Origin: a virus
Taxonomy: Duplodnaviria; Caudoviricetes
Length of the DNA stretch: 64,000 nt
IMG/VR virus record: IMGVR_UViG_3300037067_021792
Reading direction: 5' to 3' (one strand)
A program made the position numbers and the translations under genes. This document shows, piece after piece, positions 1 to 57,400 of this stretch. Each line of letters starts with the position of its first letter. Position 1 is the stretch's first letter. A model generated the notes under the pieces. It did no database searches, was not told the origin of the DNA, and was given only the letters and a program-made list of their open reading frames with translations.

Positions 1-705
1 GGAAGATATTACAATCCAGAGCTAGGAAGATGGATAAATAGAGATCCACTTGGAGAAGCTGGAGGATTAAATTTATATGCTTATGTTGAGAATAATCCTG
101 TTGATAGGATTGATCCGTTAGGATATTGTTGGTCATTATGTAAAAATGGCAATTGTACTGAAAATACCTGTCCCAGAAAACCTAATCGAAATCGGCACAA
201 TAGAGATTTGATTTTACCGTGTCCACAACCAGTATGCGATCTAATTAAACGAGGTACAGAAAAAGGAAAAATAGTGGGAACCACGAGTTGTCTGGGCTCA
301 GGTTTAGTACCTTGCAGTTGCACATTCCCAGAAAGAAGAAACTCTGGCAGTGATACTGCCGATGATATTGAGAACGATTGCACGGCGGCACATGAAAATA
401 CCCACTGGGTGCTCACCGGGTGCGCGAGAGATGGAGGTGGCCCGAACCCAGAATGTGCTGCATATAAGACCGAAATTGATTGTTTAAAAAAGAAAGCCAA
501 AGAATGTGGCAGTGATCCAATATGCTATCTAACGTTGGCCCGCGATGTGCTTAGGGTTGGGCATTCTTGTGCAGTGATTTGCGGAGATATGGGTAAATCA
601 AATATTGATCCAGATCGGGTAGCTGCATGTGCGAAGATGTCATTAAAAGCTTCTGAAGAGATAGTAGGACAAGCAGAACCATATATGCCCAAAGAAGAAC
701 CCTAA
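1..705 (+). CDS. Rhs repeat-associated core protein, 5'-truncated, with Cys-rich HExxH C-terminal (toxin-like) domain
   Basis: Frame 1 from base 1 reads GRYYNPELGRWINRDPLGEAGGLNLYAYVENNPVDRIDPLG, the canonical Rhs core ending in DPxG (112-123). It continues in frame into the 208..705 ORF, which has many Cys and CTAAHENTH. Confidence 0.9.
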   Translation, partial: GRYYNPELGRWINRDPLGEAGGLNLYAYVENNPVDRIDPLGYCWSLCKNGNCTENTCPRKPNRNRHNRDLILPCPQPVCDLIKRGTEKGKIVGTTSCLGSGLVPCSCTFPERRNSGSDTADDIENDCTAAHENTHWVLTGCARDGGGPNPECAAYKTEIDCLKKKAKECGSDPICYLTLARDVLRVGHSCAVICGDMGKSNIDPDRVAACAKMSLKASEEIVGQAEPYMPKEEP

Positions 706-35859: not shown

Positions 35860-35896
35860 TCGGTATAATACAGCATTGAAATCGGAGTGGTTCACT

Positions 35897-36979
35897 ATGC
35901 AACTTGTCTATACTCATTACATGAATTACACAGGATATTCTATTGCGGCTCAGGACTATATTTTATCAATGTTAAAAAGCAATGTTCCATTTGATATTAA
36001 GGTGAAATGGTTGAACGCTGACCCCCAGACAGGGATAAGTGCTAATCGTAGACAAATATTTACCGCATTGAAAAATAAAAAAGATGCTCTGCCTCAGACT
36101 AATTTATATCATAGCATACCTAATCTATATAAGAATATTCCACACGCTTCAAAAAATATAGGCTTTGCTATATTTGAGACGATTAATCCCCCTAAAAAAT
36201 GGGCGGAAATAATGAATAATATGAATCGTATAATAACTGCATCTTCATTTAATAAAGGAGTTTTTGAGTCTATAGGCGTTAATGCTCCAGTGTCGGTCGT
36301 TCCTCACTGTTTTGACCCGGACCTATTCAACGCCGACGTGAAGCCAGTCGGCAGATATGGGATGACTACATTTTATAGCATGGGAACATGGAAGAACAGA
36401 AAGAATTGGGAGACTTTAATAAAAGCCTTTTACGACGCATTTGAAGACAAAAACAAGGTGTGTTTAGTAATTAAAACTGATAACCCCAAAAATCTACAAG
36501 CATTGGTAGCCAGAGTAAAAAGGTTTAGTGAGTGGAGAACCAAAAATACAGCCCCGATATATGCAGATAAGGCAGAGCATTGCGAATTTGAGGAAATTCC
36601 CAAATTAATGAAGAAAGGGGATATATATGTAAGCGCCAGCCTCGGCGAGGGATTTGCAATACCAGTTATGCATGCAATGGCATTGGGAATGCCGGTAATA
36701 GTTCCTCGATTTGGTGGGCTCCTAGAGTATGCTCTGCCACAGTTTGTCACTTATATAGAACCCGCAGGATATAAAGAATTTCCAGTAATGGACGGTGTCC
36801 CACAATTTGATAACTGTATATGGCCAGTTATTACTGTTGATGCAGTCAGGGATGCGATGAAAAAAGTATTCAATGACTACCCATCCGAAAAATCAAGAAT
36901 GGCATATGAATATGTGCATATTAATTTAACCTATAATATAATAGGTCCAAAGTTCAAAGAGGCTGTTTCAAATGATTGA
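35897..36979 (+). CDS. GT4-family glycosyltransferase
   Basis: TGYSIAA, VVPHCFD, RKNWETLIKAF, YVSASLGEGFAIPVMHAMALGMPVI. Confidence 0.9.
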   Translation: MQLVYTHYMNYTGYSIAAQDYILSMLKSNVPFDIKVKWLNADPQTGISANRRQIFTALKNKKDALPQTNLYHSIPNLYKNIPHASKNIGFAIFETINPPKKWAEIMNNMNRIITASSFNKGVFESIGVNAPVSVVPHCFDPDLFNADVKPVGRYGMTTFYSMGTWKNRKNWETLIKAFYDAFEDKNKVCLVIKTDNPKNLQALVARVKRFSEWRTKNTAPIYADKAEHCEFEEIPKLMKKGDIYVSASLGEGFAIPVMHAMALGMPVIVPRFGGLLEYALPQFVTYIEPAGYKEFPVMDGVPQFDNCIWPVITVDAVRDAMKKVFNDYPSEKSRMAYEYVHINLTYNIIGPKFKEAVSND

Positions 36980-38114: not shown

Positions 38115-41100
38115 GTGGAATTACCTAAAGATATACAACATATAATTTCGACAGTGAGCAATGCCGCTCAACGATGCGGTACGTCTGCATATTTATCTGG
38201 TGATTATGCGAAATTAGTAATAACAGACAGAATCACTCCTAACCCAAAAAATTCTATAGATTTTATCTTAATTAATAGTTCAGAATTATCTATACCAACT
38301 TTCTATAGTTATATATCTGAGAAAATAACTATAAATAGTGAAATAAAGAATTCTGAAGAGGTATATTCCGTTATTTCGTATCCCTACATTCTTAATTTTT
38401 TTATTCGAAATAGTATTTGTGATGAGAATCAAAGATTTTCTATTGATAATATATATTATGATATATCTAAAGAGATTGTAATCGGTAACAAATCTGAAAT
38501 AATATCTGATCCGATAGTGCTAAACTATGTTGGTATAGAAAATTTCGGGATGGATGATGTTATTGACTTAGTTCTAAAAATATCTAATTTAGGAAAATGT
38601 GAGATACGTAATCTGGATTCTTTAAAAAATATTAAGCTATCTGATTTAAAGTATGGTTTGGGAAATAGTAAATTAGATATAGTAGTGGATATTCTATTAA
38701 CAAACAATCCTGGAACTGCAATCAAATTTATTGAGTCCACATTTAAAGACGGCAAACAGTGGATGGTGGAAAATCTGTTATCCTCTATGGCTGCATTGGA
38801 AATACCAATTAGTGAGGACATAGATTTAAAGGATATATTTAGCGATAAAAAAATTGAGCTGATAAATATATATAATGAATTCTTTCTAAGTAAAAATTCT
38901 TCCTATGAAACCCCAGAGGAAAGAAAGCTCAGATTAGCTACAACCCTAAAGCTTTTATTTGATTCTCCATCGTTGGTTGTGGATATTCCATATATTGACA
39001 GAATATCGGTTGCTATATCTAAACATCTGCAAGATGGGAAAATTCAGATGTTTGAAATCCCAGGTGATTGCGAGTATCCCCCATGTCCAACTTGTGACCC
39101 TACTCAATGCGGCGAAACGGGACCATCTTGTTGTTGCTGTTCATCTGTTGATATAGTTGATCAAGTGCAGTTGGAATGTCATCACAAGGTCGTAATTTCG
39201 TGCGATTCAACCGGAACAAAACCAGGGCCCAATGATGACCCGTTTCCCGCAGGATGTTCACGATGTCTAGAATCATGCAGTGGAGTTTTGGGGGTTCCTG
39301 GATATACAGATTTTTGTTCGGGAGATTTGCCATCATGGTGGTTTTTGATCCCTCCTGTGCCGTGTCAATGTGAGTGTGCAATACCCGGCTCGCCAGATTG
39401 CAATTTAACTTGTATGTACTGCAAGGGGGATAATACAAGATGCAGATCTTTAGTGAGCATCCAACCATATGATTGTAATTACGTGGTGTCTCTCACCCCA
39501 GGACCTGAATGCTGTGGTGCGCCCGCATTTATAAATTGGATGTTTGTTTTAGATTTTTCAGGCAGCATGTCAGGAAAAATTGATGAAATTATTAATGAAA
39601 TTGGCATTTTAACCCAAAAATTAGAAGATACAGCTGCAACGGCTAATTTTGCATGTACTATGTTTGGTTATAATATTCCCGGCTCCGACGCAATTCCAAT
39701 AGTAATTATTGAGTGGACATCAGATGCTAAATCATTTACAGACAATTTACAAATACAAAAAAACAAATTCCTAGGTGGTTCTATAGAGTATGATTTACTA
39801 GCTGTTAGCAAATCGATTACCGAAATCGAATGGCCACAAGCATCGTCCAGTTTTATATTCTTAATTGGCGATGAGCCAACTCAGGATCCTAGCAGAATTG
39901 ATGATAGACTATCCGGAGTAATACAATTATGTAATTTTAAGAACATAACTGTTCACGTAGCCGATATATATTCTGAGCATAGGCAAAAACTAGTGTCTTC
40001 TACCGGCGGGCAGAGATTTAATATTTCTGAGTCATTTAGTAATATAGTTGACTCATTAAATTTGGCTGCATTTCCTACCAGTTGCGACTGTTTAGATCTT
40101 AATCCAATACCAGTATATTTAAATACTCCAGAATGTGAATGCCCACAAGACCCCACCGGAGTATATTGCCGAGATCATCCGGAAGTTCAGGGATTAGAAA
40201 ATTGGTCTGAAAAATGTATGTCAATACCGATTGAAAAATGTACATCAGGAGAAACATGTAATTGTGATTGGCCTATTAGCTTATTTGTTTGTGGAACAAG
40301 CATTCAGATAACACCAACCAGCGTAAATCAGGTATGCTGTGGCGAGTTGGAGGGGTTTAATTGTGATTGTCCGTCCGTGACAGACCCCAGAGTGTGTTGT
40401 GGGGTGGATTGCCAACCATTATGCGATCCAATCGAGCCAAAATCAGTATACAACACATTGTCTGACGCTCAGCAATCGATATGGTTTAATTGCACGCAGG
40501 AGGCTGCATATGCCATTGACGAGTCATGCTATGCATTCGCAGATGGAAAGGGAGGATTTTATCAGAAATGTAAGGATGAGGTATATAGTGAAATTGAATC
40601 AGCATTTTCACAATGTTTCGAAGGACCAGACATTCCAGAAGGCGAAAAAGTCCCTTGGACATGTATGGCTGCAAAATGCCTGGCAGATGAGAGTATTCCT
40701 GATATTAGTTTAGATTGTGTATCGACTCAACATCCGGATGTTACAGTTCTAAATAATGGAATAGGAATTGTATGCTATGAAAGCTTAGATGAAGATAAAG
40801 CTCCCGTCATTAAAATTGCGCAATTTAAAACCAGTGTAGATTACGTTCTGTTATCCAATAGAGAATTTAATTTCGGAAGACTGCAAAATAATAAAAATTG
40901 GTCAAACGGTAAAGCTAAGCTATATTACTACGATGATTTGCCAATAGAAATATTACAAGGATCAAGCACTACTGAAATAAATCCAGATGGGTCGGAATGG
41001 AAAGATGCTATAGGATTTTCTTCTGGGCCACTGCAGGGCCAATGCTTTCCTCTTGGCAAGACAGAGATTGGTGTTCCGTATGGTGAAGATGAGAATGGAA

Positions 41101-44100
41101 GATTTTTGATATTCATTACTACGAATTCAATATTGAGTAGTGAATTCCCAAGTGATGACGACATATACAATATAAAATGGTTTTTGTGGGATGTACAAAG
41201 TGCAGGCAAAAAAATAGGAGATGCTTCTGCCACGGGTGGACAAAATGCTCAGTCTTATCCATATAGTAGATTTTTGTTTGATAACAGCGGGGTGGTAAAT
41301 AATATTTTATCAGGAGAGCGGGTAACGTCTCATATCTACAATGGAACAGCGGCTCCAGTGTCCAATCCTAGAATAGTCACTCTGTGTAATTATACTAGTC
41401 AACCATATGAAAATTCTCAAGTGCTTTATTTTACATACCAAGCACTTGAAGATAATAGATGGAAAGTATACTTAAAGCAATTGAGACTTTCTGAATATAA
41501 AAAAGACGATCAGATTATTGAGTCGATTCAACAAAATACGCTGATAAAATTGTCTAGTCTTGGTATAACCGATCTGATATATCGCATTGTATGTGTAAAC
41601 GATAAATGTACCGATATAGGAGAATCCAAATTTTTACTAGAAAAAATAGTCACATTTGAAGTATTAACAACTGACGGAAGAGAAGTTTTGAATCCCCAGT
41701 TTTCCTCGACCACAGAAACCTGGGGATCCCTATGCTCGGGCGTTCCTGAATTTGAATTTCCTAAGCGTAAATTATTTACAAAGTTTACTCACTCACTGAC
41801 AACGGATAAGTGCCCAGATGAATTTGGCTTTAAAGACCTGTTTCAAAATTGGACTGCTGGACAGGAATATATAGTGCCATTTACAGTGGTATCCTCCCAG
41901 TCTTTGTGGAATTTTATTAAAAGGACCAGCGATCTGGCGATAGAGCCAGGACAATATAGTAATCTGGTAATTAGCGGGATCAATGTAAATCTTTCAACCA
42001 TCTCGTCTATATGGTATGAAAATAAAACAGATTCTGAATGGAGTGTAATATCGGAATCTGATCTTTCCGATATGATGTCATATAAAGGAATGGATATCAG
42101 TGAGCCTATCCTTATATCGGTAGATGAGTCTGGAAATTGTACAAATCCCGTAATAAAGACCGATTCTAATAATGACGTTTTTATTGCATATGAACATACT
42201 GACATAAACGGGTTGCACAACATCAAACTGGTCGGCACCTGCCAACCGGTAAATATTCTGCCAGCAGGGATATACAGAGGCAAGGATATAGAATCATCTT
42301 TGGATTATTTTATATCATATGCCGATTTCGTTTACAAATGCGATATCACTTCCACCGGAGATGGGGTTAACCAACTACCGGATATGTTCATAGATTTGAA
42401 TAACGTCATACATTTAGCGTGGCAGTCCAATAGAGACAATAGATGGGAGATATACTATTGCAATTCCAACTCGTTGTTTGCCCCACAAAGGATAACTAAT
42501 CATTACGGAAAATCAATTAAACCAAAAATATCTGGTAACAAATTCGGATATTTGTTTATAGTATGGCAGGATGATAGGTATGGGAATTATGAAATCCTAA
42601 TGTCGTATAACGCAACACAACGTATTAAACCGTTATATCAACAAGACCCGTATTTGGCATCATTAAGGAATACGGGGTGGGCACACACTACCGATGATAT
42701 ACAGTTTAGTATCACCAACAATCTGAATTATCCCACATGCTACAATAATATTATTGTAAAATTTTATAATGATAGATTTTTATCTGATCTCGCATTTGAA
42801 TTGCCCGCATCTGAATATCCATTTGCATTTAATTTAAAAGATGCTCAAGATATAAATTCTAAAAATTTAGACGACATAAGCCAATGGAACACAATAGAAA
42901 ATTTCGAATTCAGTGATACATATATATTAGACCGGATAGAGTATCAATCAACTAGCAAAGAAATAGATGCATTTATTGATAATTCTGCAATTTTATCAGT
43001 AGTAATACCAAATTTGGGAAATGGTTGGCATTTGGTGTCTATTAATATCAGGGCCAGCAATACCGCAGGTCAATCTGGAGGTTGGTCCACGAATATTGAC
43101 ATAAGTGGATTATCTGGACAAACACTAGTATTGGATTATCTTTCAATACTCGGAAGATATCAACAAGTTAAAATATCATATTATAGAGATATAAATAGCA
43201 AAAATTATACGTTGATTGATTATGATGATGATGCGATATTGGAAAATAAATCTTCATGGGACAATAATCAGCCATACATAAAATTCGGTATGGACTCTGT
43301 CTCATTTGATTCATACTTGAGATTTAAAATCGATATACCATCAGGGCAAAAAATAATTGAATCCAGCCTAAAATTTTTACCATACTCTAGCCAGGCAACT
43401 ACTGTTAACGCGTTAATTAAACTACTAGACAACAATAATGCAGACTCATTCCCTGATACAATGATTAAAAACATGGTAGTATCCGATTCCCGAGATGATG
43501 CAGAAGTACATAATCGTTTCTGGACAAGTGATGGTGATACAATTGGTATTGGATACGATGGATATACCGGAGATTCATATGATGCATATTTCAGATTTCC
43601 TATAGACATTCCCAGCAATGCTTCGATAATATCTGCTAAACTAAAAATGAGATCTGCTAGTGATTCTCTTGGAGGAACTAATTTTAGGATATCGCTCATA
43701 GATACTAATGACCAATCGGAATTTTCCTCAAGCAGCAGAATTATCACACCCGTGTCAAGTTCAAAAAGCGATACATGGGGGCATAATGGAGAATTAACCA
43801 CAGATCAATCTGCATCAAAATTTTTATATTTTGGTAACGGGTCTGGAGTGACATATCAATCATACTTTAGATTTCTACTAAATGTCCCTAAAACCGAAAT
43901 AGTATCTAATGCGTATTTACTACTTACTCCATATACAACCAACTCTCAATTATGTAGTTCTATTATTAAGTTAGCATCTGTTAAGAATATTTCAGAATTT
44001 AATGAAACCGGAACAGCCGTTGTAAACGCCAGTGCTGATGCGAATTATCTGTGGTCAGGTTGGAGTTCGCCTCTGATCGGAGGACCTGCTCAGGTGGTTT

Positions 44101-47100
44101 GCTCGGGTATATATAATATAAGATTTAATAATATTCACCTGCCTACTACTCCTGCGGCAGATTATAGAGTGTATCTACATTTTGATATACCTGTATTATT
44201 ACAGGATAAAAAGTTTGTTGCCGCTTCAATATATGTTAATCGAACAACATCACAATATAGTATTCCGGTTTACAACGCGTCTCACGATCTTCATCCATGC
44301 GGATCTGTCTCAGACTTTATTCCATTTGCAATTAATCCAGTTATATATGTATCCAATCAGATCGGATGGGCACATGGAGATATTTTGCCGCTATTTTCTG
44401 AGAATATTCTAAACGAATATACATTTGCTCTAAAATCAACAGTTGCAGACGGACAGAATGATTATATCAACAGCATTGATACTGGTTTTATCCCATATTT
44501 AAACATTGATTGGGCAACAGCAGTTCCAAATCTAATGGGAGGGGTATCTTGGTCTGCATCTGGTTGGGAAATCAATGTAGAAGAAAGATCTCCAGATATT
44601 TCAGACCTAATAAATACCTGGTTAAGTTATCAAGATGTCGGGTATGTTGGTGGTAATTATATTGGTCTGGAAATTGGAGGGCAAGCAAGCAATACAGAAT
44701 TACAAACCTGTTATGCCTGGGATGACGGAAGCGGAAAACAAGCACAATTAGTGGTAGAGTATGGAGATACAGTCCCCGATGTGACATCGATGTCTGTTCT
44801 ATGGACCCCAAACGACGAGTGGAGTTTAGGAGAAGACATAGAAAGTGTGGATATTTCGTCTTTAATACAATCATATATTAGCAGGCCCGGGTATACAGCA
44901 TCTGGCAAATACATTGGCCTTGTTATTAAAAATGAGCTAAGTTTTACAAAGAAAGAGATAGACTCTTATGACGCATCTTATGGAACAGGCACAGAATTAG
45001 AGATTAAATATGTTATAAATACTGTTCCAGAAACAACCTCTAATTCTGTCATTTGGTCACCGGGTTCTTGGGAATTGGGGGTCGAAGAAGAATCTCCAGA
45101 CATATCATCGCTCGTTCAGGAATTTATTGACAGGAGCGGATATATAGAAAACAACCATATAGGCATTAAAATAGAAGAGAACGGAAGTTTTGGATACAGG
45201 GATATAGTGGCATATGATGATCCATATCTCAATAGTGTTAGTTTAGATGTTTTATATGCCGCTCCGTTATCTTGGACATTCACTTTAAATTCTATCAGTC
45301 CTCCAAGGGTTTGTTTGATGGATGGCGATACCTTCAATGGCAGTTTAAGTTTAACTCCTACTATCCGGGTAGACCAGTCGGGTTCTGTTGTATCACAGAT
45401 TCCGTTACCGATTGATTATGAAACAAATAATGCATATTTTATCCAAGTAGTAGCTACAACTGATGAAGGAAATTCAGTCGAATTTGATCAAAAACTCAGT
45501 GCATCTTGTTTAGAATGCAAACATTTGTCTCAAAATATCTGGGAACACGATTCCTGCTCTGTTAATATATTGATTAGCAATACCACTTCACAGTCTATGT
45601 CTTATAACTTTAAAATAAAATTCTATTCAGACCACAATAGACAAAAATTGATGTATGAAATTTCTAGTCTAGATAATCTTGAGTATTTTACCGTAGGAGA
45701 GAATGTTCCAGCATCTGAGCAGTGGGGCACAAATGGTCTGGATTTAGCGCAGGGAGAAGATTTTAATGTTACAGCCTGGCCAATGTTAGATAAGAACAAC
45801 GGGCTATTATGTGGTATACCGTACTATTTAGAAGTATATTATTGTTCTTCTCTAGTGCCGGATTACCATCTGTTATCAATACAGGATTGGATGTGCGAGT
45901 GCAGGTCCGAAAGGTGGACATGGATGCCAGATCATTCCGTAAAACCTCTAGGCGAAACGGCCCGGTGGCAGTGCAGCGGAGAGGGATTATCTGATATTAG
46001 GCTTACCGAAAGCATATCCAATAATCTCAATCCATCTATTATAGTGCGAAATGATTATACTGGCATTATATTATATGAAAGTAATAGACCGAAAATATTT
46101 TCTCCTAATAATACGATTGATTATGAATATAAGATTTATTGTTCGGTGTTTTCGGTTAGTCCCAATCGGCACATGTATGCGTCATCGGTAAGAAGCATAT
46201 TATCTTCGTTCTCCTATCTTATTTACAAATCAGACGTAGAATTGTGTCCGGGTCTACCATCCGAGTGTTATGATAGTAATGGAAATCGTCGGGTAATCTA
46301 TGGAAATAATGTTTCAGCAAGTGTAGACCAATTTGATAATCTATTTGTTGCCATTGAAAAACATGAAGAACCATCTGAGTGTGATATGTTTACTAAAGGA
46401 AAAGAAAAACATATAATTGTTCATAGATGCGGAATTCTAACATCAGAATTTTTATTCGATGATTTTATAGAAGAAAAACCTCAAAAGCAAACCTGCTCAT
46501 CTGATAATATTTTGAAAAAAATATACACCGTAGATGATGCTGTGTTTAATAAAACAATAAAATTAATTCGAGTTAAAAGTGAATTTGTTAAATATCACAT
46601 CACATATGCAAAAGAAAATTGTGCAGTTGTAAATCAGTGTAACATAGAATTTGAGGTTATCGGAGCACCCGAATCATCTGCTATTCAACTAAAGAATTCC
46701 GATTCCGATGTCTGGTCATCATGGATGCCCTTTAGCCCTACCATTGGAGAAAATTCCCTTAATATTAAATGGAGTTTATCCGCAGGCAGCGGTATTAAAC
46801 AAATACAATTTCAAGTTGCAACTGTAGCTGGGGTTACTGGAACGACATCGTTGAATATCATTGCTGATTATGATCCGATATCTTACTCGGTGGTGTTCTA
46901 TGGAGCTTCAGAAATAGCGCCAGACACTATGACTAATGAGGAAATCGTATCTACGATTATAAATAAGGGAGATTTATGGAAGCAAGAAAACCGACTTACT
47001 AATTTTAACGATATTCCCGTCGCGTCAGTCGGAGTAACTGTTGAATCAGTGTGGATTGATGAGTATGGAAACGAAGTTCCCGAAGGACAAGGAACGGAGG

Positions 47101-47636
47101 TTTTCAGACCTATTGAATTAAGTTCAACCTACGCACTTATTGAAATAATACCTGATATAAAATATGTGTCCCAATTTAACAGCATTTCGGATGATATTAA
47201 ATCTCAAGGGAGCGGAGAAGGGTGCATTGCGCCGACATTTGATTTTATTCATCAGGGCAGCCAAAGCTATTATAACCAGAAAACATGGTGGTCCAGGAAC
47301 AGCGACAATCAGGAAGTGTTTAGGAGTTACATACAAATTAACAAGGATGACGATTGGGGGTATAAAGATGGATTAGCAACTATTAGACCGCATTTCAAAA
47401 ATGACTGCTCAGATTCCGGATCCGTGTCTGGAATTTGTTCTGGAAATACTACCGTATTTAGTAGAAATGAAATTAATCAACTTACAACAGAAAAAACATC
47501 ATCTCAAAATCCATCTGATATTTGGAGTGAAAATAGAAATAATGTCGGTTTAATTCAATATCCAATCGTTATAAGGCCGGTAGGAGATGACCCATATTTG
47601 ATATTCGGTGATCCAAATTATTATGATCCAAATTGA
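38115..47636 (+). CDS. Giant (3173 aa) modular virion/adhesin-like protein: decayed nucleotidyltransferase-like head, Cys-rich regions, VWA, propeller repeats, nested beta-sandwich stack
   Basis: VWA FVLDFSGSMS...LIGDEP; IHLAWQSNRD/FIVWQDDRYG repeats; four YLRF/YFRF/YLHF modules; C-terminus DDPYLIFGDPNYY. Confidence 0.8.
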   Translation: MELPKDIQHIISTVSNAAQRCGTSAYLSGDYAKLVITDRITPNPKNSIDFILINSSELSIPTFYSYISEKITINSEIKNSEEVYSVISYPYILNFFIRNSICDENQRFSIDNIYYDISKEIVIGNKSEIISDPIVLNYVGIENFGMDDVIDLVLKISNLGKCEIRNLDSLKNIKLSDLKYGLGNSKLDIVVDILLTNNPGTAIKFIESTFKDGKQWMVENLLSSMAALEIPISEDIDLKDIFSDKKIELINIYNEFFLSKNSSYETPEERKLRLATTLKLLFDSPSLVVDIPYIDRISVAISKHLQDGKIQMFEIPGDCEYPPCPTCDPTQCGETGPSCCCCSSVDIVDQVQLECHHKVVISCDSTGTKPGPNDDPFPAGCSRCLESCSGVLGVPGYTDFCSGDLPSWWFLIPPVPCQCECAIPGSPDCNLTCMYCKGDNTRCRSLVSIQPYDCNYVVSLTPGPECCGAPAFINWMFVLDFSGSMSGKIDEIINEIGILTQKLEDTAATANFACTMFGYNIPGSDAIPIVIIEWTSDAKSFTDNLQIQKNKFLGGSIEYDLLAVSKSITEIEWPQASSSFIFLIGDEPTQDPSRIDDRLSGVIQLCNFKNITVHVADIYSEHRQKLVSSTGGQRFNISESFSNIVDSLNLAAFPTSCDCLDLNPIPVYLNTPECECPQDPTGVYCRDHPEVQGLENWSEKCMSIPIEKCTSGETCNCDWPISLFVCGTSIQITPTSVNQVCCGELEGFNCDCPSVTDPRVCCGVDCQPLCDPIEPKSVYNTLSDAQQSIWFNCTQEAAYAIDESCYAFADGKGGFYQKCKDEVYSEIESAFSQCFEGPDIPEGEKVPWTCMAAKCLADESIPDISLDCVSTQHPDVTVLNNGIGIVCYESLDEDKAPVIKIAQFKTSVDYVLLSNREFNFGRLQNNKNWSNGKAKLYYYDDLPIEILQGSSTTEINPDGSEWKDAIGFSSGPLQGQCFPLGKTEIGVPYGEDENGRFLIFITTNSILSSEFPSDDDIYNIKWFLWDVQSAGKKIGDASATGGQNAQSYPYSRFLFDNSGVVNNILSGERVTSHIYNGTAAPVSNPRIVTLCNYTSQPYENSQVLYFTYQALEDNRWKVYLKQLRLSEYKKDDQIIESIQQNTLIKLSSLGITDLIYRIVCVNDKCTDIGESKFLLEKIVTFEVLTTDGREVLNPQFSSTTETWGSLCSGVPEFEFPKRKLFTKFTHSLTTDKCPDEFGFKDLFQNWTAGQEYIVPFTVVSSQSLWNFIKRTSDLAIEPGQYSNLVISGINVNLSTISSIWYENKTDSEWSVISESDLSDMMSYKGMDISEPILISVDESGNCTNPVIKTDSNNDVFIAYEHTDINGLHNIKLVGTCQPVNILPAGIYRGKDIESSLDYFISYADFVYKCDITSTGDGVNQLPDMFIDLNNVIHLAWQSNRDNRWEIYYCNSNSLFAPQRITNHYGKSIKPKISGNKFGYLFIVWQDDRYGNYEILMSYNATQRIKPLYQQDPYLASLRNTGWAHTTDDIQFSITNNLNYPTCYNNIIVKFYNDRFLSDLAFELPASEYPFAFNLKDAQDINSKNLDDISQWNTIENFEFSDTYILDRIEYQSTSKEIDAFIDNSAILSVVIPNLGNGWHLVSINIRASNTAGQSGGWSTNIDISGLSGQTLVLDYLSILGRYQQVKISYYRDINSKNYTLIDYDDDAILENKSSWDNNQPYIKFGMDSVSFDSYLRFKIDIPSGQKIIESSLKFLPYSSQATTVNALIKLLDNNNADSFPDTMIKNMVVSDSRDDAEVHNRFWTSDGDTIGIGYDGYTGDSYDAYFRFPIDIPSNASIISAKLKMRSASDSLGGTNFRISLIDTNDQSEFSSSSRIITPVSSSKSDTWGHNGELTTDQSASKFLYFGNGSGVTYQSYFRFLLNVPKTEIVSNAYLLLTPYTTNSQLCSSIIKLASVKNISEFNETGTAVVNASADANYLWSGWSSPLIGGPAQVVCSGIYNIRFNNIHLPTTPAADYRVYLHFDIPVLLQDKKFVAASIYVNRTTSQYSIPVYNASHDLHPCGSVSDFIPFAINPVIYVSNQIGWAHGDILPLFSENILNEYTFALKSTVADGQNDYINSIDTGFIPYLNIDWATAVPNLMGGVSWSASGWEINVEERSPDISDLINTWLSYQDVGYVGGNYIGLEIGGQASNTELQTCYAWDDGSGKQAQLVVEYGDTVPDVTSMSVLWTPNDEWSLGEDIESVDISSLIQSYISRPGYTASGKYIGLVIKNELSFTKKEIDSYDASYGTGTELEIKYVINTVPETTSNSVIWSPGSWELGVEEESPDISSLVQEFIDRSGYIENNHIGIKIEENGSFGYRDIVAYDDPYLNSVSLDVLYAAPLSWTFTLNSISPPRVCLMDGDTFNGSLSLTPTIRVDQSGSVVSQIPLPIDYETNNAYFIQVVATTDEGNSVEFDQKLSASCLECKHLSQNIWEHDSCSVNILISNTTSQSMSYNFKIKFYSDHNRQKLMYEISSLDNLEYFTVGENVPASEQWGTNGLDLAQGEDFNVTAWPMLDKNNGLLCGIPYYLEVYYCSSLVPDYHLLSIQDWMCECRSERWTWMPDHSVKPLGETARWQCSGEGLSDIRLTESISNNLNPSIIVRNDYTGIILYESNRPKIFSPNNTIDYEYKIYCSVFSVSPNRHMYASSVRSILSSFSYLIYKSDVELCPGLPSECYDSNGNRRVIYGNNVSASVDQFDNLFVAIEKHEEPSECDMFTKGKEKHIIVHRCGILTSEFLFDDFIEEKPQKQTCSSDNILKKIYTVDDAVFNKTIKLIRVKSEFVKYHITYAKENCAVVNQCNIEFEVIGAPESSAIQLKNSDSDVWSSWMPFSPTIGENSLNIKWSLSAGSGIKQIQFQVATVAGVTGTTSLNIIADYDPISYSVVFYGASEIAPDTMTNEEIVSTIINKGDLWKQENRLTNFNDIPVASVGVTVESVWIDEYGNEVPEGQGTEVFRPIELSSTYALIEIIPDIKYVSQFNSISDDIKSQGSGEGCIAPTFDFIHQGSQSYYNQKTWWSRNSDNQEVFRSYIQINKDDDWGYKDGLATIRPHFKNDCSDSGSVSGICSGNTTVFSRNEINQLTTEKTSSQNPSDIWSENRNNVGLIQYPIVIRPVGDDPYLIFGDPNYYDPN

Positions 47637-48417
47637 ATTTAAAATTAATAAATGTTCTAACGATAGCATTATTGAGATTAGAGCATGTCTGTACTGTCCA
47701 TTAGAATACAGCTCTATTGAGATAATGTTCAGAAGAAATAACGATATAATTCCAATTATAGATTCTTCTGCTGGGTATATCTTAGGTCATCGCGTTATTG
47801 TTAATCAAAAAATTAAGGTCATTGCAATAAATATATACAATGATAGTTGTGATGATATATCATGTGTGGTGGAATATTTAAATCAAGGACAAATGATTCA
47901 CTACGATTACAGTATTATCAAATTAAATACTAGAGATAATTTAAATCCAGAAATTAGATCAGATAAAATACCTATAGGATATTCTTCTTTAAAATTGCCA
48001 TCTAAAATAAAAATTCGTGTTTTTGACGATATAGTATTGAATTTATTATGCCCATCAGATTCATTTGTGGCATCGTTCGGAGATATGTCTAATGCTATAA
48101 CCAAAACAGATATAATTTTTTATGTATACAAAAATGCCAAAACAGTGACAATACCAAAGGAAGTAGTATGGATAAATTACAATAATTATATCGGCTCGGA
48201 ATTAAGATGTTGTGAATTGGTGAGATCGGTATCTCATAGTGTTAATATATTACATAAAGTCGAAATATCTGATATAATTAGTTTATCTGACATTCCATCC
48301 AAAAAACCGGTTAATCTAACAGATTTTAGAACGCCGACCAAGCAAATGTTTGACTGGGACGAATGGAAATTAAGCGATTTATCATTATTGCCTGTGTACA
48401 AGGCTAAAAGTCAATGA
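47623..48417 (+). CDS. Partner protein B of giant-protein cassette 2 (paralogue of 36972..38114)
   Basis: MIQIEFKIN...VTIPKEVVW...FRTPTK. Confidence 0.68.
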   Translation: MIQIEFKINKCSNDSIIEIRACLYCPLEYSSIEIMFRRNNDIIPIIDSSAGYILGHRVIVNQKIKVIAINIYNDSCDDISCVVEYLNQGQMIHYDYSIIKLNTRDNLNPEIRSDKIPIGYSSLKLPSKIKIRVFDDIVLNLLCPSDSFVASFGDMSNAITKTDIIFYVYKNAKTVTIPKEVVWINYNNYIGSELRCCELVRSVSHSVNILHKVEISDIISLSDIPSKKPVNLTDFRTPTKQMFDWDEWKLSDLSLLPVYKAKSQ

Positions 48418-51400
48418 TTATGGAAAACATTAATTGCTGTCTGGGACCATATGCAATTTATTCTCCCGATTTTCCAGGAGAGACAGGGCCAGTTTTTGTA
48501 GATACCACAAAAACCAGATTAATATCTATTATATATCACAGTGGTCAATGTATCGTTCCTCCGACAGTTGATGCTAAGGTAGTTCACGAAAAAATAATCA
48601 ATGGGTATACAGCCAGATGGTATGAGTGCCCTAATGATTTTGGCCGAATTTATACTGTAATCCCAACTGCTTGTGACATATCAATTTCCTTATTTGAGAA
48701 TGGTTTTAACAAAATTGGGGAGTGTGATGCCTCAGAATACGGTGTATTTACGTACTGTTTCGGAAAATCTTATATATTAGACACAGACCTAGATAAGTGT
48801 ACTGCTGAATTCATAATAGATGATCATAAGTTTGTTGTAACGGGCACCCCATCGAATACTGATTTGTTCGACTGTAGTAATTGTTGGGGAAACGTGCAAG
48901 TATTTTCCGGTGGAGGTGGCAGTGGTTCTGGACAAAATGCTCTTCCGGATATCCCCGATACAAATGTTCCCAATTATCCTACGCAGAATGTTTTAGCCCC
49001 AACCGGTGATGACACCAACCAATGGAATGATGATTCTATTGGGTCGGCTGATTTAGACGACAACAGTCCGATGGGATGTGTTAAAATTCTAGAAATACAA
49101 AACAATGAGAAATGTGATAGTCTTAATAACCCAGCCATCTCCTCGTCCCCTTGGGGTTCGATTATAGTTGCACATGAAACAAGAAATAGTGATGGAAATA
49201 CCTATATTTCTGCAAAGGCATCTCCACTATTAAGCAATAGACAGATAATTTTTTATAGATACCTTAGTTATGGAACATTGGTAAACAATGAAGACCAGAG
49301 CACAACAAACAGAATTTTTGAAGTATATGAAGATTTGGTTTTAGGATCTAATGTTCCGTCTAAATGGCCACAAATTGAAGATTTGGAAATTGGGTTTATA
49401 ACCGGACCGCTAAAAGGAGAATCTTTATATTTAATTATAGACAAATCTAGAGTTCTAGATAATTTAACCGGAAAATATAAATGGATATTTACATTTAATA
49501 GTGACGGGAATAAAACTATATTCTCAGATTCAAATAATATATATGACATACAGTGGTTTTTGACTGCTCCTTCGGTTTCACAGATGTCTATAAATACCGC
49601 TGATAGTGTTCAATTGATGTCTACGTGCAACTGGTATAAACTATCAGATTATATAACCCCAACCAGTAAAATTGACGAATTTTTAGGGAATAGAATTAAA
49701 GTGAAAGGTGGCTATGGAAATCCAGTACCTGCCTATTATTTGAATGAAATTAAAATGACTATGGAATTTGAAGATCCATCAATTTTGATATACTGGTATG
49801 TAATGAAACAGGTCCAGACTAATCCTGTCAATGATAATTATTTCGAGACAATTGCAGAGATTATTACCCCGTCAGGGCTATATGGATTAGCAGAATACTC
49901 CAGCGGTCAAATTAATGTCAAGCTAGACGCCAGTAACACCTACGCGATAGGTGTTGCGTTTGATTCTGGACGAGGAGATACCGACAATAGGGTGATTGTT
50001 GGATCAAATAATGTTTCATATATGCAAGATTTCGGACCATTCTTACTTGAAGGTAAGTTTGAAACATCCTACATTCCTCCGGTTAATAGCAATAGCTCAG
50101 AATTCGGGCAATGGGATGTGAGCCCGACGACGGGAATGGCTTATAATATGGAGATATGCCTAAGTGAATCTGCTCCGTCTATTCCTGAAACCCCAGGACA
50201 CAATCCAGATAGCGAAATATTTGATTGTTCTACTAAAACATTTCGAATTGCGTCATCTGATGACGGACAAGAAGACAATAATTTATTTGCCGGAAATATT
50301 ATTACACTGAAGGATTGGTCTGATACTTTCTATTTAAAGGAAATAAGACAAAAAATTGAGGTACAGTATCCGGGCCAAAAGTTATATTTTACAGTTCATC
50401 AATACGACCATGCGTCTGGATTTAGTTGTGACCAGTCTCAATCTGCAACTCACACAGAATGCAATCCATTGCTATATAAAGAGATCATTCCCAGCGTGTT
50501 TGGTTCTCCATACTGGTACTCATCTGGAACTATTAATGTCAAATTAGAGCCTCCCGCATCTGGTTCTAGGAGATATATCATCGGTGTTTCTGTGAGATCC
50601 CCAAAAGTAAAATTTTATAAATCAAAAGTAAAACCTGAAGGTGGATATTCAAACATCGCTTTAAGAACATTTTTTGGATCAGTTGCATCAAATGATTACC
50701 ACATAATAGGACCGGTAAACAGAAGATCTTATATCAGAACGACAAGTACTTATGCATTTGCTCAGGAATTTTGTTTAACAAAAACTCAGGGTGGGTCGCT
50801 ATCTAGCTTGCCTGGTTCAATGGATGGGCACGATGGATATATCCCATTCTTACCTATAGATCATATTATATATCGAACTTCATCTAAAACTGGATCTATT
50901 TTTAATAAAATACGTGTCGGATACCCAGCAGAGTTGCGTGGAATTAGAACGATTAAAGAAGTAATTGTGAAATTGAATATCCCAAATGCAACAACAATAT
51001 ATTTTTACCTTGCTGATAGCAGTGGAAAAATTCTTAAATCTCATCCAGTTACAATATCCGAAATTGGAGAACAATATTGTTCTTCTGGTGAGATATCTTG
51101 GTCTGTAGGAAGTGAAAGCTCTGATATTTATTATTGGGTTGGAGTGGGCTATGCGTATTCCAGCTCTGGAGAAATATTTAGCGGTATTTGCGAAGAAACC
51201 AGTTCAAACGTAATGTGGACTCCATTTGGGAATTTAATAGGGGGAGGGTCTAGTTCGAATGTTCCTCCATATCCTGTGGAATCCACCATTTCTATTGGAA
51301 GTCCTGCACTAACTCGTGTGTATGACATCACATTGAGATGGGCAGACGCAAATGGAAATCTCCCACTACAAGGAGCATGCTGCAGTTCTGGTGGATGCCA

Positions 51401-54400
51401 GAATTTATTATCATCCGAGTGCTCAAGTATAAGTGGAGATTGGCAGGGCAGTACAACGAATTGTTATTCATTCAATTGTGGATCTTTAGTCGGGGCTTGC
51501 TGTTTACCAGATGGAACTTGTGTTAATAACAAAACTATCGTAGAATGCGAAAATTTAAATGGTATATGGCAAAATGGCGAGGATTGTGGCAGTGTGGATT
51601 GTGACATAGGTGCATGTTGCTTTAACAATTATAGTTGTTTAAATTTATCCAGTGGAGGATGTTCATCCCAGGGAGGAAATTTTCGCGGCGTGGGAACTAG
51701 TTGTGCGTCCGAAGAATGTGGCACATCTGCATGTTGCTTGTCTGATGAAACGTGTGTTGATATTACTAAAGAGAATTGTGATTCTCAATCAGGTGTATGG
51801 AGATCTGGATATACATGTTCTACGACTAGTTGCGTCCAATCGTTTACGGGTGCATGCTGCTATAACAATGGACAATGCATAAATTCTACAGAAGATGATT
51901 GTTTAAATGTATATCAGGGAAGCTTCCAGGGCATCGGAATATCTTGCGAGGAAATAGTTTGCTCTAAATCTGGCGCTTGCTGTCGGCCCGATAGTTCGTG
52001 TGTATTTACAAGTAAAACTTCCTGTGATCAACAGTCTGGCAGATATTTTGGAGACGGAGTAACATGTGAAAATTCGGATTGCTCCGAACCACATGGGGCG
52101 TGCTGTTTCTCAGATGGAACGTGTAATGATATTCCACTTACTAATTGCATTAATGCTGGGGGTATATATTGGGGAGATAACACTAATTGTGATGATATAT
52201 CAGTAAAATGCCAGGTCTCAACCAACGTCGGAGCGTGTTGCTATAAAGATGGATCATGTTGGCCTTCTACGGAGAATGATTGCAATGAAAGCGATGGGGA
52301 GTTCAAGGGTATAGGGGTATCTTGTGATGATGCCAACTGCAATATTAGGGTATTAGAAAATGACAATGTGTTTGATTTGCCCCAAACAGTATTCCCTGCC
52401 GCGAATCCAGATATAGCAGTATTTAATAACAATCTTATGATCGATCACTCCGAAATATCATATATTACATACCAAGTATATGAAGATAACCAATGGAACA
52501 TCTATCTGAGACAGTTCCGAAGGGTTCTACCAGATAGCACGTCTCCTTCATATGAATCCCCATTTGTATTTAGTAACCCATCATATGATCTTTATCCAAT
52601 TTCTGATAACATAAATGTTATATACGATTTGGTAAATTTATTTACTACCGATGACAATAAATGGAATGCAATTTTTAGGGTCTTTTTAGAAAATGGAAGA
52701 CAGGTTTTAAATTGCGATGGAGATATTAATGGGAACATAGAGCTAGACTCTGGACAAGAAGTGGATTCTGGTAGCGTTTGGGTAGAAGCAAGATATGATA
52801 TGTCAATCTGCTCAATAAATAGTGCACCGAAATGGAGTATAGGAGATAGATTTACCGGGGGACATCCTCCAGTAGCTAGTACATTTGGCGGATCAGACAC
52901 TGACGGTTGTACTGAAATTAATACGTATCCAAATGAGTCTAGATGGTGCTATCAAAAATCCGATTGTGAACAATACGGACTATACGATTCAGGCGTGTGC
53001 CCCACTCCATATATTTCCATAATATATAATCCGTCTGACATGTGGACTATAAGCACCGGGAATGATTTGGTAACCAGAGTCAAATACCAGATGGAGATAG
53101 ATACAGATCCAAGCACTACCCGGTCTTCCTTGGTTGAGCCTGAAGTTGATTTCATGTTTGTCGTAGATTATAGCATTAGTATGAGTGCTAAAATACAAGA
53201 GATTAGGTCAGCTTTGCCGGTTTTATCTCAATCCTTAAAACAATACGGAGTGAATGTCAAGTTTGGATTATGCATATTTTCTGGATCAAATAATTTAGTT
53301 CCAGACTCGATTACGTGCGGCGGGGAAATTTTTGATGGCCTATATGGTTTTAACGGAATTTATGGATTTACAGACAACATTCAAAATATATCAGATGCTA
53401 TGTCTCCATCATCCTGGAAAACATCTGATAACTCATCCGCTGGATATGTCGCAATACAGTATGCGCTAGATGATGCACATTTTTTGTGGAGACCTGATTC
53501 TGGCAAATTCATGTTAATTGCTACTGATACTAAACCAGACGAATACGCAAATGACTGTACTTACTTGAATAATTACAATTCTGCACTCAATGCATTATCA
53601 AACAAGAATTGTAAAATTTATATTGCAGCTTGTCAGTCTGAGACAGATTGTATTGATGATACATCTGATTATTTTGATATGGGAGTTGCATCGGGGTGGA
53701 ATAGTTCATCAATTTGTCCGGATTCTTCCCATCCGACAAACTGCGGATATTTTTATGTTGGCGGACCCTACTATAAAGTATTTGATAACATTGTCAATGA
53801 TATTATTACATCCATATCAAAGCCCAAAATAGTAGAACGAGACATTCCGGGATACTCTGCGACGTTCATTAAACCAGCAGAAATCATAATAACTTATAAA
53901 AATGACCTGACAGACATCTGGACATACGAGAAACATAAGTTGTCCTTTATAGATTCAGCACCTTCTTTATCTGGACACCTTAAGGGATTATCGTCCATGC
54001 CATATGATATCGAGAATGGAATGATCTATGGCGTAGATTCTGTTCATTTGGTAGGAAACACAAACAATTGGGTGTATTTTTCTGGATCTGGAAATGTGGA
54101 ATATGACTATCCTAATGTTGGAGCACCAACAAGAGACCAGTCGAATCCCAGATTGATATTTGAAAATGCTAAAAACCCCAAAATTGCTGTCAACAACAGA
54201 GGCAATGTATTCATTGTCTGCGAAAGCATGAACAGCGGGGTAGAACATATCGTAATTAAAGGCACTGGAGATTTTGCACAACAAACGGTTACTGGCGCTG
54301 ATCTACACAGATCTACTAAATTCTGGAAAACATCTGATTTTGTTTTCGAGCATAACATCACATTGCCAGGAGAAGGGGTAAATCAGCTATGTGACTTAAT

Positions 54401-57400
54401 TATTGACAAGAATGATATCATCCATGTTACATGGCAATCGAATCGCGATGGATACTGGGAAATATATTATGCAAATGGTTACGATTTGTTCAATCCTGTT
54501 CGAATTACAAAATCTGAAAGCAGATCGGCGTTTCCGTCGATAGACATTGATGATTCTGGTAATGTATTCATTGTATATCAAGACAATCGTTATGGCCCTT
54601 ACAACATATTGCTTTCATATAGAAGCAGCGAACGGGTTGTGCCTCTTTTGCAGCAAAATGCATATTTAGGGTCTGTTCGGTCGGGATACTCTCACTACAT
54701 AACCGTATTACCGATTCTTCTTACAAATTTATCTACTCCTGTTTCAACAATTGGTACAATGTGGGGGTCCAGAAGCACCGGATCTATGAGTATGTTGTTT
54801 GGCATATCTCCCGTAACCGGAGTTCTGGGATCAAATGGAGGAGATTCCAGCTACGATATCGTTGCTTTTGCAGGAAAACGATCGGGTGAATTTTATGGTA
54901 TTACTAGGGACGGAACCTTGTTGCTACTTGCCGATTCATATGAAGACCCGTATTTGGCACTTGATTTAACCACAATATCTGAAATAGGACAAATTGTATT
55001 ATCCCCTGATCAGGAAATTTTAGATGCAACTATTGACGAGATTGGTGGTTCCTTGTGGATGTTGATCCATGATTCTACAAATATTATTATTAAACAAGTA
55101 GATGTTTTGTCTGCGAGTGTTTTACGGGAAAGCGTAATATATTATGATGTAGATCGATTAATTGGAGGCATAACTTGCACATCTGATGGAAAATTTTATC
55201 TGTCTAGTTATAGGGACGGTATATCTAAGCTATCTATAAGTGAATATCCATTAATAGGTAATGACATTATAATATTCGATTTCATTGATACCGTTAACTT
55301 TTCTGTTAATATCAAATGTTTAATAACAGATTATAATGACATAGTTTACGGTGTTTCAGATTTACTGGGAATGTATATTGTCAATGAGCATGGCGAAACC
55401 TTGGTCAATTATATGAACAATACTGATGGAGACTTGGAATATATTATTGACAATAGAGATTCAGATAATACCAATGTTATTGGCAGTTGGAAAACTGGAT
55501 CTGCAGCACCCGGAAAATGGAGTATAGATTATAGATTTAAAGACACTATCGACAGACCTATTGGATTTTTCAGGTGGGTGCCGGATTTGCCATATCCGGG
55601 CAAATATAGAGTTTCAGCTTACTTTCCTGGAGGCGGCAATCGGCCTATTGACGCCCCGTTTACTATATATCACTCAGATGGGTCAGATACCATAAGAATG
55701 AATCAAAAACCAGCAACGCCAACATTAGTAGAGCCATGGAGATATTTAGGGTTTTATTCATTTGGTGATGAGTATGGTTCGGGTGGGTATGTTGAGTTAT
55801 CCAACGATACAGATCCAGCACTTGGCTGGAAAGCAGTAATTGCCGATGCCGTGAAGTTCACTCCTGAGATTAGAATCGGGTATCAATTCACCGGTCATAC
55901 GACGAGTGTTGGAAATAGTGGATTTTTTAATACAATTTTGGAATTCTATACAAATAAAAATCTTGTTGGCCAGCCCGACCTGGTGATAGATAGTAGGGTT
56001 CATCGGGAATCTTTCACGATAGAACAATTTCCAGATGATCCATACAAACCCAATGGAGATGGAATATATCTAAAATCTGGTCAATCTGGATATATGTTTT
56101 TTGATGCGTCAAATTATCGTCCCGATGCCAGTAATCTGTCTTACCCATATGTGTTTGTTAATAACCAATCGTATTTTGTAAAAGTAATTATGATAGACCA
56201 GGATGGAAACTCTTCTTACCCTGCTTATCAGAATTCCACGTTTTCTTGTACTAAATGCTCCGTGTATGCTAGTGGAAAATTTGATTTATCCGAGTGTTCG
56301 TATTCTTTTTTAGTTAACAACACCGGATCCGATACTAGATATTTTAATTTTAGAATAAACTTTTATTCTGACGAACTGAAATTGTCTATTGTAAAGTGTT
56401 TTTATTTATCTCCAGGGTCATCGGATATAGGTTACTGCGAGGTAGATAATACCACCGGAGCAAATGAATGGGGAGAGTTCGGTCTTGCGATTAGGTCTGG
56501 CGAATCAAAATTTATTCAAATATATCCATCTCTAGATCCTGCCGGAAAATTTATATGTGGTATAGAATATCCTGTTGATATTTTATTATGCTCATCATCT
56601 GGCTCAGAAGTGTGTTCTAATTTTGGTATTGATCTAGATGTGATAGAAACATATAGCAAATATTACTTTTGTGAATGCTCTAGTGCTATCTTTGATAACA
56701 GACTACTTCATATTAATGAATTAAATCGATGGCATTCTAGCGCCCATGGCTATTCCGACACAAGAATAACCGATACACCTAACAATAATTATCACCCTGT
56801 CATATCTACTAGGTCTAGCGGATCGGCAGTAGTTGTATTTGAAGACCGAAGTTCAATTTCTGAAATTAAAGCTGCCACCTTTAGCCCATCAGACAGTGAA
56901 GATGTGTTTGGGTCTGGAACTCGCGGATGGTTTGATTATAGCACTAACTCGATTGGAGAAAAACCTGCCCTATCAATAGATATGTTTGATAGAGCGAATG
57001 TGGCTTATGAATTTAATAACGCGATATTGCCATTGTCAACCGAATTGCCTAGAAGTGTTATTGATGTGAAAACATGCAAATTTAACGACTTGATTTCTTC
57101 TGGTGATACCTCTGAAAAATGTAACATATCGTCCTTTGAATCCAATGTTATAAGCAATGACCCGTTTATTAATGCAGAAATAGTTAAAAAAATAATAGTT
57201 GAATCTTCCGATGTAGATTATTTTACATACAATTCTTCAGGAGAAGCAGTTGCCGTTATCTCTAAACGTGATGTTGTATTACAAATTTGGGGGACACCGG
57301 AGATTGTGGCAGTTAGAGTCAAAAATGAAAATGAATTATCTTATGGGAATTGGTGTCCGGCATTACCAGAAATTAATTCTTATTTTATTGAAATACAACA

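What the first reader, a model, noticed from the sequence alone, without database searches (positions are those of the whole stretch)
43204..45260. Russian-doll nested domain stack (A1-A2-A3-[A4B4]-B3-B2-B1) in the 3173-aa protein
Seen: three N-half modules in a row (DDDA...SYLRFKIDIPSGQKIIESSL; DDA...AYFRFPIDIPSNASIISAKL; SD...SYFRFLLNVPKTEIVSNAYL), each ending near D..N...F, then one apparently complete domain (YLHFDIP...PYLNIDW), then three C-half modules (W..SGW....RSPDISDLI...IGL...AWD...LVVEY; W...EW..G...SVDISSLI...SRPGY...IGL...SYD...LEIKY; W..GSW..G...SPDISSLV...DRSGY...IGI...AYD...LDVLY). An N-half plus a C-half make one DNRLRE/PilY1-associated-type beta-sandwich, as I recall the family. 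Inference: each domain was inserted into the same loop of the previous one, building a rigid two-stranded stalk with the intact domain at the tip. Recursive insertion rather than tandem duplication is rare.
Basis: partly seen in the sequence, partly recalled or inferred. Interest (0 to 1): 0.8.

Follow-up and report, generated by a model that had tools for sequence, protein, structure and literature searches.

The report
Four-deep nested domain phage arm
A giant protein of an uncultured large phage carries sugar-binding-type domains set one inside another like Russian dolls, and its relatives have none, three, eight or five side-by-side copies at the same spot, which shows a rare way of building a protein arm as it evolves.

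Summary
Confirmed. Residues 1697-2384 of the 3173-aa ORF hold three N-halves, a core and three C-halves of a DNRLRE/CBM96-like beta-sandwich that 143 of 150 database hits carry intact. Folded as two separate chains without cross-half alignment rows, the halves pair A1-B1, A2-B2, A3-B3 (ipSAE 0.76, best control 0.00; mark reached by 58 of 80 solved, 2 of 110 mismatched pairs). An AlphaFold2 model gives the same three nested domains (CBM 8WAB, Z 17.2). The window's own core is not shown to be an intact domain (pLDDT under 50); orthologous cores are. Orthologs hold, in one host hairpin, nothing, 3, 4 or 8 nested layers (one clade, halves balanced where countable), or five tandem intact copies (separate lineage). 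One relative has a 2-layer cassette at a second site. Likely an out-and-back arm with a variable tip on a phage virion protein; rigidity, location and ligand are untested. Recursive nesting is known (cyanobacterial RNA polymerase Si3); I found no paper describing it for this fold. This scan already reported an 8-deep relative on other DNA (e1-5635044).

The parts
38115..47636 (+). 3173-aa giant protein that hosts the stack; probable virion protein of a large tailed phage
   Evidence: ORF; contig of 268 kb; tail-tube gene upstream; gene order kept in four relatives
39540..40046 (+). VWA-like domain of the host protein
   Evidence: Pfam VWA_4 E 1.5e-4 and VWA E 5e-4, both under the curated cut-off
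43152..43181 (+). Host strand before the insertion (GRYQQV motif)
   Evidence: In empty-site orthologs this motif lies about 15-25 residues before the RxCL motif
43203..43460 (+). A1, N-half of the outermost domain (residues 1697-1782); pairs with B1
   Evidence: 1769 touches 2352; model range 7..696
43461..43733 (+). A2, N-half of the second domain (1783-1873); pairs with B2
   Evidence: 1826 touches 2269; range 91..611; 8WAB Z 17.2, rmsd 3.5, 161 aligned
43734..44009 (+). A3, N-half of the third domain (1874-1965); pairs with B3
   Evidence: 1934 touches 2213; 1918 touches 2185; range 182..528
44010..44510 (+). Core or tip (1966-2132); probably a diverged intact DNRLRE-like domain
   Evidence: Weak in this copy; orthologous cores match NF033679 over positions 16-164 and 30-162
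44511..44765 (+). B3, C-half of the third domain (2133-2217)
44766..45014 (+). B2, C-half of the second domain (2218-2300)
45015..45266 (+). B1, C-half of the outermost domain (2301-2384)
45267..45317 (+). Host strand after the insertion, up to the RxCL motif

Best explanation
The region is a recursive self-insertion of a DNRLRE/CBM96-like beta-sandwich. Each domain is opened at the same mid-domain loop and holds the next, so the chain runs out through A1, A2, A3 to the core and back through B3, B2, B1, and every shell domain is built of one outgoing and one returning half (predicted by two methods). The stack sits in a short hairpin of a host domain that is empty in many orthologs (shown by sequence). 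It most likely works as a two-stranded spacer arm that holds a variable, probably glycan-binding, tip away from the body of a virion protein (inferred). Depth changes by whole layers because a lone half does not fold (inferred from balanced counts and from the controls). The window's fourth layer arose by doubling the outer shell on both sides, which one out-of-register double crossover between paralogous halves would give (inferred). Confidence: about 0.93 for the nested fold, 0.55 for the arm-with-tip function, 0.4 for the recombination route; the figure below is for the nested architecture with an arm-like role.
For: Halves sum to one domain: A period about 91 plus B period about 83, against 174-191 for intact tandem copies. 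143 of 150 hits carry the domain only as intact AB. ESMFold2 on AAA and BBB as separate chains, no core, half-only alignments: score 0.76, best control 0.00; the mark was reached by 58 of 80 solved complexes and 2 of 110 mismatched pairs (counts hold only roughly with my own alignments); runs agree in at least 97% of contacts, partner pLDDT at least 86; best contacts are A1-B1, A2-B2, A3-B3. The pass itself may come from likeness to solved CBM folds, but likeness does not choose among the nine possible A-B pairs. AAA has pLDDT 87 with its partner and 33-37 in the controls; BBB 59 without AAA. AlphaFold2 with intact rows placed only on the middle pair A2-B2, which nested and sequential pairing share: the shell strands mostly at pLDDT 70-95, pTM 0.60; solved domains superpose on model ranges 7..696, 91..611 and 182..528. 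Orthologs: AAABBB in six, eight plus eight in P0002 and P0003, 7 A with 7-8 B found by HMM in L008, L009, L049 where the core halves are diverged. A second, 2-layer cassette in P0002 has a shell whose A and B both match the inner shell of 3-deep stacks in 6 of 6. Host tree: nested forms are one side of a branch, SH-aLRT 98-99; nested plus tandem as one clade rejected, p-AU 0.0015. Tips vary: 171-412 residues, 24.5% mean identity against 31-38% for shells; BNR propeller-like stretch at the 8-deep tip, E 5.7e-7, under cut-off.
Against: The structures are predictions. The AlphaFold2 run without any cross-half rows failed (pLDDT 42). The second run's alignment was chosen by me so that rows fell on set modules. 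The core of this copy did not fold. The family-wide mirror test of A and B similarities is inconclusive: r 0.23 nested against -0.09 sequential, but 23% of permutations reach the nested value. The P0002 cassette's A half matches window A2 better than A3 (101 versus 70). Five of six shell halves are net acidic, unlike the basic groove of alginate-binding CBM96 (PMC9971899), so the shells may bind nothing. No test of virion location, rigidity or ligand. Trees are quick searches without bootstrap.
Confidence: 0.85

Rival explanations
1. The halves pair in the antiparallel register but between two copies of the protein (domain swapping in an oligomer), so the stack links subunits rather than forming a one-chain arm.
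For: AAA and BBB are predicted to assemble as separate chains, so pairing in trans is sterically possible. Virion proteins are often oligomers (general knowledge).
Against: The core joins A3 to B3 covalently, the single-chain model closes on itself, and the stack replaces a hairpin of about 15-25 residues whose two ends must stay close.
Confidence: 0.06
2. The fold is nested, but the stack is an array of binding modules or a tolerated passenger: every layer binds glycan for avidity, or none matters, and reach plays no part.
For: The same site holds five tandem intact copies in another lineage and is empty in many orthologs, so nesting is not needed there. The closest solved folds are all ligand-binding modules.
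Against: Shells are more conserved than tips, and tips take up extra domains. Depth was kept and grew to eight in one clade. Shell halves are mostly acidic.
Confidence: 0.3
3. Sequential pairing (A1-B3, A2-B2, A3-B1), or A-type and B-type repeats that fold as independent small domains.
For: A^nB^n order alone does not fix the register; the mirror permutation test was not significant.
Against: Contacts and superposition ranges show only nested pairs; halves lose confidence without the partner; in the window A1 is closest to A2 (36%) and B1 to B2 (42%), the mirror pattern.
Confidence: 0.02

Closest known systems
Si3 (SI3) insertion of cyanobacterial RNA polymerase beta-prime: nested sandwich-barrel hybrid motifs (PMC10895346; PMC13114784)
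   Same: Copies of one domain family nested inside each other (six levels by ECOD), inserted in a host loop, forming an elongated out-and-back body; a tandem form of the same insert exists in E. coli.
   Different: Other fold (small SBHM versus about 175-residue beta-sandwich), other setting (enzyme versus phage giant protein). Si3 mixes nested and continuous copies and branches; this stack is strictly linear with one split point, and depth varies 2, 3, 4, 8 among relatives.
DNRLRE domain (NCBIfam NF033679) / CBM96 (Pfam PF24517; PDB 7VBO) and the chondroitin-sulfate-binding CBM 8WAB
   Same: Sequence motifs and predicted fold: 8WAB Z 17.2, rmsd 3.5, 161 aligned; 7VBO Z 14.2, rmsd 3.3, 153 aligned; NF033679 41.9 bits against a cut-off of 34.
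   Different: Known members are continuous and occur singly or in tandem. Here three of four are split by up to 518 residues. Pfam PF24517 does not hit this copy. Binding is untested and the shells are mostly acidic.
TGF-beta family prodomain arm domain (e.g. 4YCG, 7POI, 5HLY)
   Same: Same beta-sandwich: Z 10.7-11.2 on the A2-B2 and A3-B3 domains.
   Different: Distant fold likeness only (10-15% identity); no nesting, no shared function implied.

Membership tests
DNRLRE domain (NF033679) | Score above the curated cut-off of 34 bits | tested here: met
   41.9 bits, E 1e-10 for the whole region; single halves stay below the cut-off
DNRLRE domain (NF033679) | One continuous domain of about 165 residues | tested here: not met
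   Shells are split; orthologous cores are continuous; the window's core is inconclusive
CBM96 (PF24517; 7VBO) | Pfam PF24517 match | tested here: not met
   No hit on the region or its modules; ortholog P0151 has a weak precomputed hit
CBM96 (PF24517; 7VBO) | Beta-sandwich fold of 7VBO | tested here: met
   Predicted model: Z 14.2, rmsd 3.3, 153 of 182 aligned on A2+B2
CBM96 (PF24517; 7VBO) | Binding of alginate or another polyanionic glycan through a basic groove | not testable with these tools
   Only composition seen: D+E exceeds K+R in five of six halves and in the core
CBM96 (PF24517; 7VBO) | Structural calcium site | not tested
   Conserved Asp positions exist in the family but were not mapped onto the 7VBO ligands
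Recursive same-family domain insertion (Si3 type) | A1-A2-...-core-...-B2-B1 order with nested pairing of discontinuous halves | tested here: met
   (predicted structures, not solved)
Recursive same-family domain insertion (Si3 type) | Whole stack inserted in a loop of a host domain | tested here: met
   Empty-site orthologs join the two flanks directly
Si3 / sandwich-barrel hybrid motif | SBHM fold inside RNA polymerase beta-prime | tested here: not met
   The repeat is a DNRLRE/CBM-like sandwich in a phage gene next to tail genes
Phage receptor-binding or tail-associated protein | Presence in the virion and binding to the host surface | not testable with these tools
   Gene context only: tail tube Pfam PF18906 E 1.8e-10, PHROG 290; no cultured relative in the phage collection

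The most novel reading that the evidence does not exclude
This phage family shows a complete natural series of how a nested protein arm is born and lengthened: an empty hairpin, a portable 2-layer cassette, then 3, 4 and 8 layers, growing by single out-of-register double crossovers that copy both halves of a shell at once, with an independent tandem solution at the same site; arm length and tip tune which hosts the phage reaches.
Probability: 0.35. Interest if true: 0.78.

Novelty: new variant of a known kind. Interest (0 to 1): 0.62.

Why it matters
Same-family recursive nesting has one well-studied natural example (Si3). Here it occurs in a different fold, with a single split point, and with relatives that show empty, tandem and several nested states at one site. 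That makes two questions testable: how nested repeats gain layers when tandem duplication alone gives orphan halves, and how a chain folds when its first half-domain must wait about 520 residues for its partner (over 2000 in the 8-deep forms). It also explains why profile searches miss such proteins: Pfam finds nothing in this ORF. A split-tolerant CBM96-like unit that stacks through two strands is a possible modular spacer for protein design. The scan has met nesting in several other folds, so the architecture may be more common in surface proteins than the literature suggests, which lowers the surprise of this single case.

Tried and rejected
Pfam on the ORF, the region and each module: no relevant hit. 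PDB by sequence: none. Foldseek on the split model: nothing at E under 0.001 in PDB or BFVD. AlphaFold2 with half-only rows failed, pLDDT 42; this is no evidence on pairing. Mirror permutation test inconclusive. Profile comparison of the window's core with intact domains: probability 0.7%. Word-index homolog search with the nested region found only the query. No DNA repeats or terminal repeats that would mark a recent duplication or a mobile element. No cultured phage relative. No RNA holder listed. Paper searches found no description of nested DNRLRE/CBM96 domains nor of the related contigs; most subscription journals are not covered. A one-contig joint 40815-45157 in run X3 rests on 24 letters at a loose setting and was disregarded. 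No whole genome was held. The host organism was not identified.
Full report
Observation. The region lies in frame in a 3173-aa ORF at 38115-47636. I delimit A1 1697-1782, A2 1783-1873, A3 1874-1965, core 1966-2132, B3 2133-2217, B2 2218-2300 and B1 2301-2384. The three A modules match each other at z 12-17 and the three B modules at z 9.5-25 against shuffles; A-B and core comparisons are at background. Two runs hold the stretch in one contig without differences, though either may be the window's source. DNA repeats are short and diverged.

What the module is. NCBIfam NF033679 (DNRLRE) hits the region with 41.9 bits against a cut-off of 34, best stretch on the first 106 of 164 profile positions. 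A search of 1.84 billion representatives gave 620 hits. With A and B profiles, 143 of the top 150 carry the domain only as intact AB units, some as stand-alone proteins of about 190 residues. So A and B are the two halves of one domain. The A period (about 91) plus the B period (about 83) is close to the period of intact tandem copies (174-191), so little was lost or added at the split. PMC9971899 links DNRLRE to CBM96, PDB 7VBO.

How the halves pair. AlphaFold2 with rows that held only A or only B stretches failed (pLDDT 42). I then placed 25 intact-domain rows on A2+B2 only. That pair is the same under nested and sequential pairing, so A1, A3, B3 and B1 were free. The model has the shell strands mostly at pLDDT 70-95, pTM 0.60, and an unresolved core. 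Solved single domains superpose on ranges 7..696, 91..611 and 182..528, that is A1+B1, A2+B2 and A3+B3; the best are CBM 8WAB (Z 17.2, rmsd 3.5, 161 aligned) and 7VBO (Z 14.2, rmsd 3.3, 153 aligned), both on A2+B2; the outer pair matches more weakly, Z up to 7. Separately, ESMFold2 folded AAA and BBB as two chains, without the core and with half-only alignments. Score 0.76, best control 0.00; that mark was reached by 58 of 80 solved complexes and 2 of 110 mismatched pairs; runs agree in at least 97% of contacts, partner pLDDT at least 86. The best contacts are 1769-2352, 1826-2269, 1934-2213 and 1918-2185: nested and antiparallel. Halves of a split domain can pass by likeness to solved structures, but likeness does not pick the register. 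AAA falls to pLDDT 33-37 without its partner.

The core. In this copy it is diverged: 0.3 bits against an HMM of 370 intact domains, E 0.07 against NF033679, 0.85 to CBM96 clusters in the Atlas. In orthologs P0151 and P0010 the core matches NF033679 nearly end to end. I infer that it is a diverged intact domain.

Relatives. Orthologs were found by the nested region and by the conserved C-terminal part; gene order is kept in four fetched loci. Between the flank motifs GRYQQV and RxCL, many have only a hairpin of about 15-25 residues. Six have AAABBB, the window has four layers, P0002 and P0003 have eight A and eight B, and L008, L009 and L049 are of the same 8-deep type with diverged core halves. 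P0154, L007 and L013 have five intact copies in tandem at the same site. On a tree of the host's C-terminal part, which excludes the insert, nested forms are one side of a branch (SH-aLRT 98-99). The 4-deep protein groups with the 8-deep ones (83-84, weak). The tandem forms sit among empty ones, and one clade of nested plus tandem is rejected (p-AU 0.0015). These are quick trees with a midpoint root; one search left out the long-branch rows, and some 'empty' labels were not checked one by one. One early insertion with later losses, or exchange of modules, is not excluded. P0002 also has a 2-layer cassette at residues about 320-715. Its A and B both match the inner shell of the 3-deep stacks better than the outer shell in 6 of 6 proteins, so that A and B travel together. 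Window A3 and B3 correspond on average to the inner shell of 3-deep forms, while A1, A2 and B1, B2 correspond to their outer shell. A1-A2 (36%) and B1-B2 (42%) are the closest paralog pairs. A family-wide mirror test favoured nesting but was not significant.

How it most likely works. Shown by sequence: the order of halves, the host site, balanced counts, variable tips. Predicted: the nested fold. Inferred: successive domains joined by two short linkers form an arm that carries the tip away from the host domain. Tips vary most (171-412 residues, 24.5% identity against 31-38% for shells), and 8-deep forms carry a BNR propeller-like insert there. The gene follows a tail-tube gene on a 268-kb contig, and the protein has a VWA-like domain, so an adhesion role on a large phage virion is the most likely function, at about 0.55. 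Five of six shell halves are net acidic, so they are unlikely to bind polyanions as CBM96 does. Growth: the first nesting needs an insertion into the domain's own loop; later layers could come from one double crossover that is out of register on both sides, which would double the outer shell as seen here. Single unequal crossovers would leave an orphan half. This route is a hypothesis, at about 0.4.

Comparison. The architecture works like Si3 of cyanobacterial RNA polymerase, a six-level recursive stack of one domain family with a tandem counterpart in E. coli (PMC13114784; PMC10895346). It is not an Si3 member. The unit is DNRLRE-like by profile and CBM96-like by predicted fold, but Pfam CBM96 does not hit it and binding is untested. 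I found no paper on nested domains of this fold. The scan's notes hold an 8-deep protein of what appears to be this family on other DNA (e1-5635044, linked by sequence to L009) and nesting in other folds; I had found the 8-deep relatives before reading them.

Verdict. Real feature; first reading supported except for rigidity and the intact tip of this copy. New variant of a known kind; interest 0.62.

Noticed in passing
P0002 residues about 320-715: A second, 2-layer nested DNRLRE-like cassette at another site of the same giant protein; its shell matches the inner shell of 3-deep stacks. P0003 also seems to have a different insert at this site.
   Followed up: partly
L007:2831-5596, L013:908-3613, P0154: Five tandem intact copies in the same host hairpin, in a lineage apart from the nested forms. 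Copies 2-5 seem to lack their own first strand, the last strand of the previous copy running straight into the DD motif.
   Followed up: partly
L009:3179-4261 and L009:6179-8161: In 8-deep stacks, propeller-like inserts of several hundred residues sit inside both the outermost N-half and the tip domain (BNR_2 E 5.7e-7 at the tip).
   Followed up: partly
L024:8438-9130, L001:15947-16909, L011:1-640: Other unclassified inserts: about 230 residues inside the tip domain of L024, about 150 in L001, and a non-DNRLRE beta-rich insert in the host hairpin of L011 that resembles the L024 one by eye.
   Followed up: no
window 13988-15076: Actin-fold gene with a full-length Pfam Volactin match (E 1.8e-59); relatives at 28-31% identity in two huge uncultured phage records, LR745208.1 and LR756511.1.
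   Followed up: partly
window 48414-58043: Paralogous 3209-aa giant with a Golvesin_C domain (E 2.6e-22) and a weak VWA match, but no DNRLRE-like halves.
   Followed up: partly
window 35876-36979: GT4 glycosyltransferase kept two genes upstream of the giant protein in all fetched relatives.
   Followed up: no
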